63,410 nt of DNA, filler included, from Octopus bimaculoides (GCF_001194135.2; 7 parts of 6 records of this genome joined end to end with filler, not necessarily neighbours in it); one strand, 5' to 3'. Counted from the whole stretch's first letter, positions 18,219 through 51,584 are shown. Program-made: numbers and translations. The notes: a model not told the origin generated them from the sequence alone.

Positions 18219-18254
18219 TTCTGACATTTTGGATACAGGTCCTTCATCAGAAAA
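18219..18254 (-). ncRNA. Decayed minimal hammerhead ribozyme motif (Penelope-type)
   Basis: Minus: TTTT CTGATGA A GGA cctgta TCC AAAA TGTC AGAA. Two CpG transitions restore CCGAAACGTC. As written, G12 is lost, so it is predicted inactive. Confidence 0.45.
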
Positions 18255-18551
18255 AATAAAAGAATGAGAAAAGGTGATAGGAATAAGGAAAAAAGTTATC
18301 TAATGACAAAGATCAAACCAATCTTTTATAGCATAAAAATAAGTATTATAGATATATCTCTATCACAGTTTCTAGTACAGGTATGTCATGTCTCTGCATA
18401 TCATAAGAGGCAACTAGTATCAGGAAGAGCATCTTGGTATAAAACAATAAACAGTGTCTCAAGAAGTCACATCTGACTTATGTTAGAATGGAGATATGCA
18501 TGTAATATGTTGATAGTTATAAGACACTCTAATGAGAAGTTTAATAGAATA

Positions 18552-18780
18552 TCATCATCATCATCATCATCATCGTTTACCGTTCGCTTTCCATGCTAGC
18601 ATGGATTGGACAATTTGACTGAGGACTGGTGATTCAGATGGCTACACCGGGCTCCAATCTGATTTGGCAGAGTTTCTACAGCTGGATGCCCTTCCTAACA
18701 CCAACCACTCCGAGAGTGTTATGGGTGCTTTTACGTGCCACCGGCATGAAGGCCAGTCAGGCGGTACTGGCAATGCAGGT
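18552..18780 (-). mobile_element. RTE-type LINE/SINE 3' end with (GAT)n tail
   Basis: (CAT)n followed by CGTTTACCGTTCGCTTTCCATGCTAGCATGG...GGATGCCCTTCCTAACACCAACC. A related, oppositely oriented tail is at ~21610-21725. Confidence 0.55.
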
Positions 18781-19774
18781 TAAAATAAATCATCAGAAAA
18801 AAACTTTCATAGCAAAATTGCTATCATATTTCTTAGGAATTGCTATTTTCACTAGCTTCATATTTACTCCAAACCCTTTGACAAATTTTCTGCTGGTTTC
18901 ATCTTCATGTGTATTATTTGCGGAATATTTTATTAATCTTTCCTTCCATGATTACATGCAGATAGATTCTTAGTAAACATCTACAGGAATGGCAGATTTG
19001 GCCTGAACAGAAACAACAAAATGAAATAAGAAAGTATGCAGAATTTGTCTTATGCAGAATAGTTTAAATATCAAGTTACCTACCAGTTTGCCCATTACTG
19101 TTGTTTGGGTGATTTGAGAAATAGCATGAAGAATGAACAAAATTGCATAAGAATGTGAAGATTTGATAAGGCACTAAATAATAATAAGAATTGACAGTAA
19201 ATCTAAGACACCATACCCAAAAAGCAGGGTTGGTAACAGTAGTAAACTACATCATTCTACATTTAACAATTTAAATTGCTTTTGGCATGTCTTTCACAAG
19301 AAAGATTAAATTTCTTGTTTGTGACAAATATGAATGTGGTAAATATGAGGATATATATGAAATTTCTCCATGAAACAGATCTTGAAATCCTTCATTATAT
19401 TTCTGTATCTTAGTAGGAAGTCCAAAGAAAAGCATTTATTTTCATCTTCTTATCATTATCCAGATAAGGTTTGAGAGTGCAGTGTTGTTCTCCTTTAAGT
19501 GATATCAAACAAGCTGCTATATTAAGTTCTGGCAGAATTTGAAAGGAAACTCAATAAAATCTATCTAGATGCTAAGAGATTTTTGAGTAATGGTTTTTGT
19601 TCAATCATAAATGACTGAATTCTTTTAGAGACCAGCATGTCCCAGACAATCCCAGGTTCTATGATATGAAAGGCTTAATTTTAAAGTGTTCATTTTTAAA
19701 TTAAAATCTTCCATCATAAATTTATGCAAGAATCATTTTATTATGTTTCAAACACCAGATTAATGATGGCATCT

Positions 19775-19967
19775 AACTTTGGCGCAAGGCCAGCAATTTT
19801 AAAGGGAGTTAGTTGATACCATCAACCTCAGTGTTTGATAAGTACTTTATTTTATTGACCTTGAAAGGATGAAAGACAAAGTTAACCTTAGCAGGATTTG
19901 AAACCAAAGCAAAAAGAGCCACAAATACCATAAAGAGTCTAACAATTCGGCCAATCAATTGCCCTAA
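19775..19967 (-). mobile_element. SINE family B, diverged
   Basis: GCGCAAGGCCAGCAATTTT...GAAAGGATGAAAGACAAAGTTAACCT...GGATTTGAA matches the reverse complement of family B. Confidence 0.7.
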
Positions 19968-20069
19968 ACATCAGATAAATTCTTTCAAATACTTATTTAC
20001 AAAACTAATTAAAATACATACCTTGTGAATTTTATCTAAAATATCGTCACCTAATACTATTTAGTTTTT

Positions 20070-47980: not shown

Positions 47981-49389
47981 GCGCCTAGTTCATTTCTTTT
48001 TTCTTTTACAATCTGAATTCAAATCCCGCCGAGATTGCATTTGCCTTTTATCGTTCCAGGGGCCTGCTGAAGGAAATACCATTTGCATACTGGAATCAAT
48101 TAGTGATTTTCTTTGAAGCAGCATAGATGTGAATGAAATTACCATGGTACACTTTTTAAAGGAAACCAATAAGAAGACACAAAATGTTATAGGAACTGTG
48201 TTTGCTCTTTTGGTTTGCACTATCAAGGTTGATCTAGGTCTAAAAAAGCAACAACAAACATGACAAACACAAAAGTTGCAAGAAAACTAGTAAATAGTAA
48301 TTAGTAAGATATGAAGAGAAATACTAGAACATAAGACGTCAGGTAAAATTTTAGTTGAAGTTCTAAAATTGGGTTGACAAATAAATTGGAATAATTAAAA
48401 TAATCTGTCAAGGGTGTCGGTGTCATTTGGAATATAGTACACAGAGGAAAAACAGTTCAGTTATATATATATATATATATATATATATATATATATATAT
48501 ATATATATATATATATATATATATATATATATATATATATGCATATGTATACAGATATATACATGTAAATTTAAATGTATATATATATATATAAATGTAT
48601 GTATGTGGGTATGTATGTATATATACACACATACACATGTACGCACATGCACGCAGACACACACATATATACACAGATACATAAATGTGTGTGTGTGTGT
48701 ATGTATGGGTGTATATTTTACTGTCCTTTTGTGTGTGTCTCTAAAGAGTGTTGTGAATAGAAATTGAAATTAAAATATTGATTTCAAATGGTGTGGCATG
48801 AACTGAATCAAAAAAAAAAAAGAAAGAAAAGTAAACAAGGTAAGTAAATTGGAAAGAAAAAATGGTTTTCTATATATTTTTTTTATTTCGTTATTTCACT
48901 AGGAGGTGGAGTATCACTCAAAATTGAACAGAATTGAATGGAAGTTTTGAATTAGCAATATAAATTTATTGAAACACTGATTTACCGTGGGACCTCACCA
49001 AAAGTTCAAGTATTCATTTAGAAATGAAGTTTTATTAGTCCACTTCTCGGAATAATTGGCATTAGCCATTTTAAGGAGTTTGGTTAGGGACGGTATTACG
49101 AAAAGTGATTAAATGAAATTAATTGCAATATAGTTAGTTTTATANNNNNNNNNNNNNNNNNNNNNNNNNNNNNNNNNNNNNNNNNNNNNNNNNNNNNNNN
49201 NNNNNNNNNNNNNNNNNNNNNNNNNNNNNNNNNNNNNNNNNNNNNNNNNNNNNNNNNNNNNNNNNTGTGTGTGTGTGTGTGTGTGTGTGTGTGTATTGGT
49301 GAATTAATGTCACTTTTGGGTTAGTCTCGAGTATAGAGAGCGTCACTGAAAAAAAGTTCGGATTCTAGCTAGTTTTATTAAAATTTATC

Positions 49390-50170
49390 TTTCGAAATAG
49401 GCGAGATTGCAGAATCGTTACAAAATAAATACATAGCGGTATTTCTTCTGGTTCTTCACGTACCAAGTTTATAACCTGCTGAGGTTATCTTTGCCATTCA
49501 TCCTTTCCCTAAAATGAAATACTGAGGTCGATATAATCGACTAACTTCCCCCACCCCAAATTTCAGGCCTTTTCCTATGAGAAAAGTGATTATAATTTTA
49601 TTTTCGATTCTAGCGTGTTTAAGAAATAAATGAACGCTAAAACTCTCTCTTTTCTTCAAAAATTTCCTAACGATTAACATCATCGTTACAGATGGTCAAA
49701 AATTTCGCGGGTTGACGTAAGTCGATCACATTCACTCTCGTACTCAACTGGTACTTGTCTTATCGACTCCCCATGGGTATAAGAGAAACATCGACCTCGG
49801 CAAAATTTGAACTCAGAACAAATAGACGGGCGAAATACTTCTAAGCATGTCGGCCGGCATGCTATCGATTCCGCCAGCTCATCAACGTATCTTTACAGCT
49901 CATTAGCAATTACATTTATCCTACTTTTCAATTGGTTTCATTTGCGATCATCTTCAGAATATTAAAAAATCCTCTTAAGAAAAGAAAAATGAATATTTTG
50001 TCGATGATTTTTGGCGCAAACCTAGAAAATTTTAGGAGAGTGGTACTTGACTGACACTTTATTTTATCGGCTCCGAAAAGATATGAAGCAAAGCTGCTCG
50101 GTGAACTTTGAACATAAAACGTAAAGAGACGGAATGAATAACGCTTAGAATTGTGTCCGTTTCTACGAGT
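49390..50170. mobile_element. Cluster of diverged family-B SINE fragments (49390-49580 +, ~49690-49890 -, ~50010-50170 -)
   Basis: Partial matches such as TTTGCCATTCATCCTTTC and CGACCTCGGCAAAATTTGAACTCAGAAC. Confidence 0.6.
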
Positions 50171-51098
50171 CCGCTGTCATAATAGAAGAAATATTAATAA
50201 TGATTATACTAATAATTCAATTAATTTCAAGCATGTTGATAATGAATATAATGAATATTTTACTTTTAACTTATGAGGTAAACTAAATTATACTTAACTG
50301 TATGTAACTCGTGATATAGCCAGGATAGTCACGACGGCTACGTCTTTAATCAGAGATTTGCAGTCACTCTATAGGTTTTAAGTAGAAGACACTTGCCCAA
50401 AGAATCCGGAACCATGTGGTTGGGAAGCAAAGTTCTTACCACTGAAAAGACCATATTTCTAATACAAAATACAAATATCCAGAGCGACCTTTATAGATTT
50501 GCCTCGGTCTTTTGTTGCACATATATATACTTTTTAAAGAGATCAACATGAAATGGTTTTCTTTCATTGTTCTTTGGTCTTTCATTGATGAAAAGAAAAC
50601 AAATAAATTTCGGCGAAAGTTCCAGATGTGAGCCGTTTCAAAACAAATATAAAAAAACATATATGCATGCATAACATACGCACATACTCACACATATAGT
50701 ATGTGTGTTTGTATACACACACACACACACACACACACACACACACACACACACACACACACACACATATATATATANNNNNNNNNNAGATAGATAGATA
50801 GATAGATAGATAGATAGATAGATAGATAGATAGATAGATAGATAGATAGATAGATAGACGTGAGTTCCAAGGATCCAGGTGTAGGAAGAAGATGAGCTTG
50901 AAGTAATCCGTAGAAAATATAAAAAACAGCTTTCAGGAGCAATAATGGTTTATCGAGGCAGAAGGTGGTGAATTTTTCCCGTATCGAAGCACTATATGCT
51001 GAGAAAAATTATATTTTATTTCCCGGTAAGCAGCCAGGGTTACTAGGAATGCTAACAAAATACAGGAGTTAAGGAATAGAGTTGATTAGATACGGGCT

Positions 51099-51270
51099 AC
51101 ATGTTTCATAGCGAGCGGAACATCGGGAGTGGTAAGTATCCAAGTGAGGTGTATACCACAGGCTATTCTTCAGGCCAAGGATATCTTGATTAATCAAGAT
51201 ATCATCGGGCTGAAGTGTAGACTGTGGCATACAACTCGCTTCTGAGGTTCTGCTCGCTATGAAATATATA
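51099..51270. mobile_element. Old MITE-like inverted-repeat element with a central 24-bp palindrome
   Basis: TTTCATAGCGAGCGGAAC (51104-51121) vs GTTCTGCTCGCTATGAAA (51247-51264), 1 mismatch, with weaker pairing inward; perfect palindrome GATATCTTGATTAATCAAGATATC at 51180-51203. Confidence 0.5.
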
Positions 51271-51410
51271 GGCCGGACGTTATCTACTTCATTGCTTAAT
51301 TCTTGTATATATATATATATATACATATTGATAGAAAACGTACGACTATAAAAGAAAGAAAGAAACCTCGATATTGTGTAAATAGAGGAATTTATCTGTA
51401 AAAAATATGT

Positions 51411-51584
51411 GACAGTTGTTCGGTAGCCATGATAAAAGTCCGAGTTTCGGATGTCGGGGCAGAAACCAACGCTGCCATCTCTTCAGTTATCTGGCCATTT
51501 CATAGCATTTTTTCGATGACCAGATAACTGAAGAGATGGCAGCGTGGGCTTCCGGAGTTTTATCATGGCTACCGAATAACTGTC
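51411..51584. ncRNA. Inverted pair of hammerhead-containing units (Penelope pLTR-like)
   Basis: Arms 51411-51497 and 51517-51584 are reverse complements. Left arm (minus): GGCCA GATAA CTGAAGA GATG GCAG..CTGC..CATC C GAAAC TCGGAC TT TTATC A TGGCT. Right arm (plus): GATAA CTGAAGA GATGGCAGCG..TCCGGAG TT TTATC, lacking GAAAC. Confidence 0.65.

What the first reader, a model, noticed from the sequence alone, without database searches (positions are those of the whole stretch)
18219..51584. At least five sequence-unrelated hammerhead motifs in one 63-kb window
Seen: CUGANGA-stemII-GAAA-stemIII-UH-stemI layouts, intact or decayed, at 18219-18254(-), 20070-20110(-), 34553-34596(+), 46869-46915(-) and 51431-51491(-), plus a Penelope GIY-YIG remnant at 41848-42342. 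Stems differ in sequence, so these are separate families, not copies. Inference: this genome may carry a dense, diverse HHR-bearing Penelope/retrozyme system that standard repeat annotation hides as unclassified sequence. Intronic copies could cleave host pre-mRNA. I cannot confirm whether it is already catalogued for cephalopods.
Basis: partly seen in the sequence, partly recalled or inferred. Interest (0 to 1): 0.75.

Follow-up and report, generated by a model that had tools for sequence, protein, structure and literature searches.

The report
Penelope retroelement ends carrying hammerhead ribozymes
The motifs are real hammerhead-ribozyme sequences left by six unrelated, very common jumping-gene families of the Penelope kind (three traced to protein-coding elements, two likely non-coding passengers, one untraced), an arrangement already described in many animals; whether any copy actually cuts RNA is untested.

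Summary
All five motifs are at the stated coordinates, and each belongs to its own dispersed repeat family. Three have an intact core; two (18219, 34553) are decayed. A sixth was missed (42782-42850). They are not a cluster: the window is a pack, and the motifs lie on four contigs. Enrichment is real: 12 strict motifs in 689 kb of evenly spaced genome samples against 0.65 in shuffles, and 11,499 against 420 for one genome-wide pattern. Three families trace to protein-coding Penelope-like elements of three endonuclease types (Penelope/Poseidon, Hydra, Nematis/Neptune-like). Two are non-coding, circularly permuted units of about 356 and 465 bp (retrozyme-like). One has no open frame linked. Mirror-image arms with a one-sided tail mark Penelope-type insertion. 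The GIY-YIG remnant is real (Hydra type) but is linked to none of the motifs. This is a known kind, and one octopus Penelope hammerhead is already catalogued. Cleavage of host pre-mRNA is unsupported. The least ordinary part is the commonest family, which carries a tRNA-like head where 17 of 26 copies begin. This scan noted the same kinds of element, including that head, on other DNA.

The parts
18171..18290 (-). H1: stump of an old Penelope-like family; decayed minimal hammerhead at 18219-18254 (G12 to A, helix III CG to TG)
   Evidence: one copy (L117/L308) runs upstream into a decayed RT-thumb and GIY-YIG frame related to L309-L314
20056..20273 (-). H2: mirror-type stump. Hammerhead at 20070-20110 (core intact) on the - arm, cut off just 3' of it; inverted tail-bearing arm about 20132-20273 on +
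   Evidence: no linked open frame seen in 24 loci
20043..20055 (-). One copy of a 13-bp target-site duplication (one mismatch) flanking H2; the other copy is at 20274-20286
34384..34466 (+). H3: tRNA-like head (A box decayed in this copy, B box intact at 34443-34452); 17 of 26 family copies begin within -7 to +8 of its first base
   Evidence: ARAGORN and Rfam do not call it a tRNA
34467..34638 (+). H3: (TAA/CAA)n spacer, decayed hammerhead at 34553-34596 (GAAA to GACA, 5-nt deletion) and the short 3' end; end of a Penelope/Poseidon-type element
41676..42680 (+). Hydra-type GIY-YIG endonuclease remnant (domain 41848-42342, one stop, one small duplication) with linker and the start of its 3' UTR; the family's own hammerhead was not found
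41566..41672 (+). Fragment 72% like the 3' UTR just upstream of the H5 hammerhead; no hammerhead follows
42767..43060 (+).
46657..46949 (-). H4: about 290 bp of a 356-bp non-coding circularly permuted unit next to (AT)n; best-preserved hammerhead at 46869-46915
51325..51584 (-). H5: mirror stump of a Hydra-type element. Long arm with hammerhead at 51431-51491 (core intact, helix III palindrome broken) and a tail of about 70 nt; inverted short arm 51523-51584(+) with a deletion through GAAA

Best explanation
The motifs are minimal type I hammerheads in the terminal repeats of six unrelated high-copy repeat families, three of which continue upstream into Penelope-type RT/GIY-YIG frames and all of which were likely spread by Penelope-like enzymes. 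Shown: family membership, conserved core, palindromic helix III, mirror arms, a tail on one side only, upstream coding frames (H3, H5, and H1 in one locus) and closed non-coding units (H4, H6). Inferred from Anolis Poseidon biochemistry (PMC11167929): the endonuclease nicks AT-rich DNA, the RT starts at one of two internal sites just 3' of the hammerhead (giving the optional tail), copies back across the uncut hammerhead, usually stops early and often inverts. Most copies are therefore 100-400-bp stumps that decay after insertion. The hammerheads are predicted to cut slowly, only as dimers through the helix III palindrome or with the element's protein bound, to process tandem element transcripts. 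H4 and H6 are likely non-autonomous passengers (non-LTR retrozymes) read round a one-unit template by a Penelope RT.
For: Density 12 against 0.65 shuffled, and 0 in reversed or complemented decoys; 11,499 against 420. Core intact in most copies. Tail on exactly one side in 14 of 14 (H3), 14 of 20 (H5) and 11 of 13 (H2) mirror loci. 6 of 8 motif pairs under 1 kb apart are back to back. H3 frame with RT and endonuclease motifs; homologues carry PF26215 (16 of 16) and PF00078 (8 of 16). H5: 5 of 28 loci, seed included, have the matching Hydra-type frame upstream in sense. H1. H4 and H6 are colinear with a doubled unit over more than one period in 10 of 28 and 9 of 23 independent loci; longest stop-free frames 53 and 60 codons. 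Helix III self-duplexes of -9.7 to -11.2 kcal/mol for H4, H5, H6.
Against: No coding frame was linked to H2. The H1 link rests on one decayed locus. Clade names rest on motifs, not on a tree. No intact full-length element was recovered (the long 'open frames' were N gaps). G10.1-C11.1 directly at the core holds in only 2 of 6 families. H6 spread with U3 in 14 of 24 copies. H1/H3 and H2 helix III duplexes are weak (-1.7 and +2.2). Top BLAST hits are biased towards the window's copy, and the H5 and H2 queries held mirror sequence, which inflates their mirror fraction. No cleavage was measured.
Confidence: 0.85

Rival explanations
1. All six families are autonomous-element stumps; H4 and H6 are only tandem remnants of terminal repeats, not a separate retrozyme class with a one-unit (circular) RNA.
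For: Tandem copies with two hammerheads are rare among fetched loci: 1 of 28 for H4 (L016) and 2 of 24 for H6 (L180, L190). Retrozymes are argued to derive from Penelope terminal repeats (bioRxiv 10.64898/2026.07.22.740005). H4-like RNA reads are few (85-202 per run) and mostly under 90% alike.
Against: Sequence 3' of the hammerhead runs back into sequence 5' of it and closes a 356-bp or about 465-bp period with no room for a frame. No sense-upstream endonuclease hit in H4 or H6 loci except the chance neighbour in the window.
Confidence: 0.25
2. Intact copies in introns cut host pre-mRNA often enough to be selected against or co-opted.
For: Thousands of intact cores exist. H3 sequence is abundant in RNA of a related organism (5,618-7,878 reads per 11.5-12.9 million). 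Xenopus retrozymes are depleted from introns (bioRxiv 10.64898/2026.07.22.740005).
Against: Single minimal motifs showed no cleavage in vitro (PMC4209133), and the Anolis motif cuts only with protein (PMC11167929). Mirror insertions place the second motif on the other strand, so one transcript carries one sense motif. No read-end pile-up was listed, and 782 reads at depth 2185 in run X21 carry the intact stretch across the H3 cut site (the library seems unstranded). Neighbour co-orientation 30 of 51 against 26.0 expected.
Confidence: 0.08
3. H3 is an independent tRNA-derived SINE with a hammerhead (schistosome Sm-alpha type) that merely sits next to Penelope frames.
For: A and B boxes 34 nt apart; 17 of 26 copies begin at the head.
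Against: The head follows the endonuclease stop codon at the same junction in L078, L083 and L242, and the copies have Penelope mirror and tail ends.
Confidence: 0.1
4. The motifs are chance matches in AT-rich sequence.
For: Single motifs do not fold better than shuffles, except H4 (z = -2.2; others -1.2 to +0.2). One strict hit (49912) looks like chance.
Confidence: 0.01

Closest known systems
Minimal hammerheads of metazoan Penelope-like elements (Cervera and de la Pena 2014, PMC4209133)
   Same: Type I topology, short helix I, extra base after A9, short palindromic helix III, many sequence families per genome, mostly solo or opposite-strand pairs 100-700 bp apart.
   Different: Density here is higher (roughly 35,000 intact cores extrapolated, against about 2,000-9,000 reported for schistosome, coelacanth and frog, by other descriptors). 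H4 and the U3 form of H6 have unpaired bases on both sides of helix II.
Hydra-clade elements, including Hydra-1_Obim of Octopus bimaculoides (Craig et al. 2021, PMC8557442)
   Same: CxCX5C linker, CxxC and CxH around the conserved E and N, (TA)n targets; the listed hammerhead has the same CUGAAGAG-AU start and odd-length helix III palindrome as H5 and H2.
   Different: H5 and the 41848 remnant are other families (27% identical to each other over the endonuclease); their helices differ from the listed Hydra-1_Obim motif.
Poseidon of Anolis carolinensis (Frangieh et al. 2024, PMC11167929)
   Same: Penelope/Poseidon-type RT plus C-terminal endonuclease (H3), two 3' ends giving an optional tail, AT-rich targets, no RNA ends at the cut site.
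   Different: H3 carries a tRNA-like head and a (TAA)n spacer upstream of the hammerhead; none is mentioned in the two of four parts read.
Metazoan non-LTR retrozymes (PMC7229834; bioRxiv 10.64898/2026.07.22.740005)
   Same: Non-coding units with one type I hammerhead and GC under 50% (H4: 356 bp, 43%; H6: about 465 bp, 32%).
   Different: Copies here are mostly one to 1.5 units with Penelope-type inversions; H6 is slightly longer than the 150-450 bp range; circular RNA not shown.
Schistosoma Sm-alpha SINE-like elements (via review PMC6765202, passages)
   Same: RNA polymerase III-type promoter followed by a hammerhead (H3).
   Different: In H3 the head is part of a protein-coding Penelope element's end, and it is copied along with the hammerhead.

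Membership tests
Minimal PLE hammerhead (PMC4209133) | Core CUGANGA ... GAAA ... UH in type I order | tested here: met
   Family majorities for H1-H5; H6 has C3 in 10 of 24 and U3 in 14 of 24 copies. Window copies intact: H2, H4, H5.
Minimal PLE hammerhead (PMC4209133) | Short palindromic helix III or loop | tested here: met
   All six family majorities
Minimal PLE hammerhead (PMC4209133) | Extra base after A9 with G10.1-C11.1 (described as highly conserved) | tested here: inconclusive
   Exact in H1 and H3; extra G then A-U in H2 (as in the listed Hydra-1_Obim motif); other registers in H4, H5, H6
Minimal PLE hammerhead (PMC4209133) | Self-cleavage as a dimer or with protein | not testable with these tools
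   Only duplex energies and fragmented cDNA reads
Endonuclease-bearing PLE insertion (PMC8557442) | Hammerhead downstream of an RT plus C-terminal GIY-YIG frame | tested here: met
   H3, H5, H1 in one locus; not found for H2
Endonuclease-bearing PLE insertion (PMC8557442) | 5' truncation with an inverted copy and a tail at one end | tested here: met
   H3 14 of 14, H5 14 of 20, H2 11 of 13 mirror loci; inverted arms in H4 and H6; none seen for H1 in 20 loci
Hydra clade (remnant at 41848 and H5 parent) | CxCX5C linker; CxxC and CxH around E and N | tested here: met
   Relatives L164 and L162 and locus L197 against section 11; the first Cys is lost in the window copy
Hydra clade (remnant at 41848 and H5 parent) | RWK and DKT motifs; RT phylogeny | not tested
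   No RT N-terminus recovered; no tree built
Penelope/Poseidon clade (H3 parent) | RT plus C-terminal endonuclease without a linker zinc finger | tested here: met
   L083 frames; homologues; no tree
Nematis/Neptune clades (H1 parent) | CX2-5CxxC linker before GIY-YIG | tested here: inconclusive
   Present in relatives L309-L312 and L314; only L117/L308 is contiguous with H1 and it is decayed; the two clades cannot be told apart here
Non-LTR retrozyme (H4, H6) | Short non-coding, low-GC unit with one type I hammerhead | tested here: met
Non-LTR retrozyme (H4, H6) | Tandem repeats with two or more complete hammerheads | tested here: inconclusive
   Direct repeats in L016, L180, L190 only; the upstream motif of L016 is decayed; gapped short-read assembly
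Non-LTR retrozyme (H4, H6) | Monomeric linear and circular RNA | not testable with these tools
   few, divergent reads from a related organism; no joints in the RNA runs
Sm-alpha-type SINE (H3) | tRNA-type A and B boxes upstream of the hammerhead | tested here: met
   box consensus recalled from established knowledge; ARAGORN 0 of 10 loci, Rfam none
Sm-alpha-type SINE (H3) | Stand-alone non-coding element | tested here: not met
   The head lies behind the coding frame in L078, L083 and L242
Sm-alpha-type SINE (H3) | Transcription by RNA polymerase III | not testable with these tools
   Only the breakpoint cluster; no start pile-up in fragmented cDNA

The most novel reading that the evidence does not exclude
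The commonest family (H3) is a protein-coding Penelope/Poseidon element whose terminal repeat has captured a tRNA-type RNA polymerase III promoter. Transcripts start at that head, and the element's internally priming RT copies the first 300 nt or so, so one coding element spawns tens of thousands of SINE-like, hammerhead-bearing copies of its own tip. A 19-fold excess of 5' ends at the head's first bases (17 of 26 loci, p = 4e-12) supports this. A short palindrome at the same spot could instead cause fold-back there.
Probability: 0.45. Interest if true: 0.6.

Novelty: new member of a known kind. Interest (0 to 1): 0.33.

Why it matters
The general picture is known, so the value is mainly a measured catalogue: tens of thousands of hammerhead motifs from at least three Penelope endonuclease types plus retrozyme-like passengers in one genome. 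The open question is whether Penelope hammerheads do anything; their absence from Naiads and their dispensability in vitro leave this unsettled. So many dated copies, intact and core-dead, make it testable by comparing intron strand bias. A Penelope element driven by a polymerase III promoter would link SINE origin to Penelope biology.

Tried and rejected
Rfam scan of the window: no hammerhead family among the 150 best of 269 matches shown; the other 119 were not visible. Linking the 41848 remnant to the neighbouring H6 motif: rejected, because other copies continue into a different UTR; only the window's own locus has H6 there. My first label 'Neptune' for that remnant was replaced by Hydra. 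Fetching the longest 'open frames' gave N gaps. H2 parent: a 28-base pattern gave 5 matches and no coding frame. One search was mis-aimed and only re-listed H3 ends. Pfam on decayed frames gave nothing significant (GIY-YIG E = 0.044 for the remnant). The homologue search with the remnant found none among 62 candidates (weak evidence). 49912-49962: probably chance. Run search: no holder on record as RNA was listed; the three raw RNA runs are from 'organism B', probably a relative because H4 reads are mostly under 90% alike, and they seem unstranded, so strand and end tests were uninformative. Neighbour-orientation proxy for intron strand bias: not significant, first 100 matches on one contig only. 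Host exons: 147 of 215 filtered frames (plus 5) were scanned and gave only mariner HTH hits and one sub-threshold hit, so intron status is unknown. PMC5785218 was not held.
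Full report
Setting. Searches place H1 (18219) and H2 (20070) on contig C2, H3 (34553) on C4, H4 (46869) and H5 (51431) on C9, and the GIY-YIG remnant on C1. 'Five in one window' is therefore a sample of genome-wide density, not a locus.

The observation. All five layouts are present. A strict type I scan finds 4 hits against a mean of 0.075 in 40 shuffles: H2, H4, H5 and one at 49912 that has no homologue in 1.57 Mb of loci. Allowing one core change adds a sixth motif, H6, at 42782-42850(+). 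H1 has lost G12 by a CpG-type change shared by 7 of 20 copies; H3 has GACA and a 5-nt deletion. Each motif is a dispersed family (149 to 2515 first-look candidates, 40 scored each). Intact cores among independent copies: H1 11 of 20, H2 15 of 18, H3 23 of 28, H4 23 of 28, H5 16 of 20, H6 8 of 24 (duplicate loci removed; hits are biased towards the window's copy). Family profiles do not match each other (best E 0.43). Single motifs do not fold better than shuffles except H4, as expected for a helix III that needs a partner.

Density. In 80 evenly spaced 10-kb pieces (688,680 non-N bases) the strict scan found 12 motifs against 0.65 in 20 shuffles and 0 in reversed or complemented decoys. That is 17 per Mb (95% CI 9-30), roughly 35,000 if extrapolated to about 2.0 Gb; only large contigs were sampled. 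Of the 12, 5 belong to window families, 3 to other repeated families, and 4 had no second copy in the loci held. One exact pattern for the CG-palindrome class gave 11,499 matches against 420 for the reversed control (the control does not keep CpG content); most of the 100 listed are H3. Family profiles found 22 arms in the sample: H3 12 (2 of them distant), H1-like 5 (4 from a related family), H4 3, H2 1, H5 1, H6 0; decoy 0.

Parents. H3: L083 continues 1.3 kb upstream through RT and endonuclease motifs, and L078 and L242 carry the frame's end at the same junction. All 16 database homologues carry PF26215 and 8 carry PF00078. With no linker zinc finger, this is Penelope/Poseidon type. H5: L197 and 4 of 27 further loci have the matching endonuclease 0.6-1.7 kb upstream in sense; its CxCX5C linker and CxxC and CxH motifs are those that define the Hydra clade. 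H1: L117 continues into a decayed RT-thumb and YIG frame whose relatives have a CX4CxxC linker, i.e. Nematis/Neptune-like; this rests on one locus. H4 and H6: the sequence 3' of the motif runs back into the sequence 5' of it, closing periods of 356 and about 465 bp without long frames; 10 of 28 and 9 of 23 independent loci span more than one period. H2: no frame in 24 loci, although its design resembles the Hydra motifs. The remnant at 41848 is a Hydra-type endonuclease of another large family (150 matches scored of 8895 candidates), 27% identical to the H5 parent; its UTR does not lead to H6 in other copies, and I did not find its own hammerhead.

Insertion anatomy. Many copies are back-to-back mirror pairs with an extension on one side only: 14 of 14 mirror loci for H3 (of 28 loci), 14 of 20 for H5 (of 22), 11 of 13 for H2 (of 20). 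The H5 copy in the window is such a pair, and the H2 copy is flanked by a 13-bp duplication. This is the structure described for Penelope-like insertions.

Mechanism. Shown: all of the above. Inferred from PMC11167929 (parts 1-2 of 4 read): nicking of AT-rich DNA, internal priming at two sites 3' of the hammerhead, uncut RNA as template, and cutting only when protein is bound. From PMC4209133 (parts 1-2 of 4): single minimal motifs do not cut and dimers cut weakly. I put 0.85 on this account. RNA from a related organism holds abundant H3 sequence with no listed start or end pile-up, and 782 reads at depth 2185 carry the intact stretch across the cut site. The libraries seem unstranded and are fragmented cDNA, so this neither shows nor excludes cutting. 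The intron strand test could not be run; a neighbour-orientation proxy was not significant (30 of 51 against 26.0).

The H3 head. Between the stop codon and the hammerhead, H3 carries tRNA-type A and B boxes 34 nt apart, then (TAA)n (box consensus recalled). ARAGORN and Rfam do not call it a tRNA. Of 35 independent loci, 9 were left out because they break in the microsatellite or at N gaps. Of the other 26, 17 begin within -7 to +8 of the head, 5 inside it and 4 upstream: a 19-fold higher break rate per base (p = 4e-12; positions curated by hand). A polymerase III start site is the simplest reading. A short palindrome at -7 to +5 is a rival cause, though 11 of the 17 copies lack its left half. 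I saw this before reading the scan's notes, which report the same in other genomes; those notes are unchecked and not independent support. Paper searches listed no paper whose title or abstract start describes such an element; I saw only listings, and supplements or repeat databases may hold it.

What is known. Hammerheads in Penelope repeats, many families per genome and opposite-strand pairs: PMC4209133. A coral with more than 6000 motifs in 16 families, and mussel 350-390-bp retrozymes: PMC7229834 (passages). Retrozymes as Penelope derivatives, depleted from Xenopus introns: bioRxiv 10.64898/2026.07.22.740005 (part 1 of 5 and passages; supplements not seen; no cephalopod word in the main text). 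Cephalopods: a Hydra-1_Obim hammerhead in File S2 of PMC8557442 (passages, section 11 and supplement hits); 235 hammerhead-1 loci in giant squid (PMC6962438, passages); 31 recently active Penelope-like families in Octopus vulgaris with no mention of ribozymes in the main text (PMC13282606, passages). Sm-alpha elements: PMC6765202 (passages). A search for hammerhead, Penelope and octopus together gave 5 papers, 4 listed, none a survey of this.

Verdict. These are new members of known kinds; interest 0.33. The polymerase III-headed Penelope element is the part worth pursuing (probability 0.45, interest 0.6 if true).

Noticed in passing
H6 family, window 42782-42850 and L169-L193: Two linked subfamilies: U3 with A before GAAA (14 of 24) and C3 with U before GAAA (9 of 24); the U3 form spread despite a non-canonical core.
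   Followed up: partly
L211, L222, L257, L151: A common H1-related family with U in place of A6 (CUGUUGA) in an otherwise normal minimal hammerhead; 3 copies in the 689-kb sample; a relative with normal A6 exists (L240).
   Followed up: partly
L221, L234, L258, L261 (sampled pieces): Further well-formed hammerheads with palindromic helix III from families not in the window; L261's family recurs in 20 held loci.
   Followed up: no
window 38969-39803 and 58796-59230: Mariner (Mos1-type HTH, PF17906) transposase remnants.
   Followed up: partly
window 1364-1681, 13414-13683, 45645-46246: Short frames that look like the C-terminal restriction-like endonuclease end of a LINE beside microsatellites (recalled resemblance; Pfam gave nothing for the two tested).
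   Followed up: partly
window 41566-41672: Orphan fragment like the H5 3' UTR, just upstream of the endonuclease remnant; may be a shared Hydra UTR motif or a separate stump.
   Followed up: partly
H5 family, L031-L060: Mirror junctions fall within about 10-40 nt upstream of the hammerhead in nearly all top hits, with variable centres; the query held both arms, so this is biased.
   Followed up: no
H3 sequence is held by runs with five organism labels, so the family is shared among related species.
   Followed up: no
window 983-1028 and 22624-22778: A perfect AT-rich hairpin region that draws miRNA-model hits, and a 41-bp tandem repeat of 3.8 copies.
   Followed up: no
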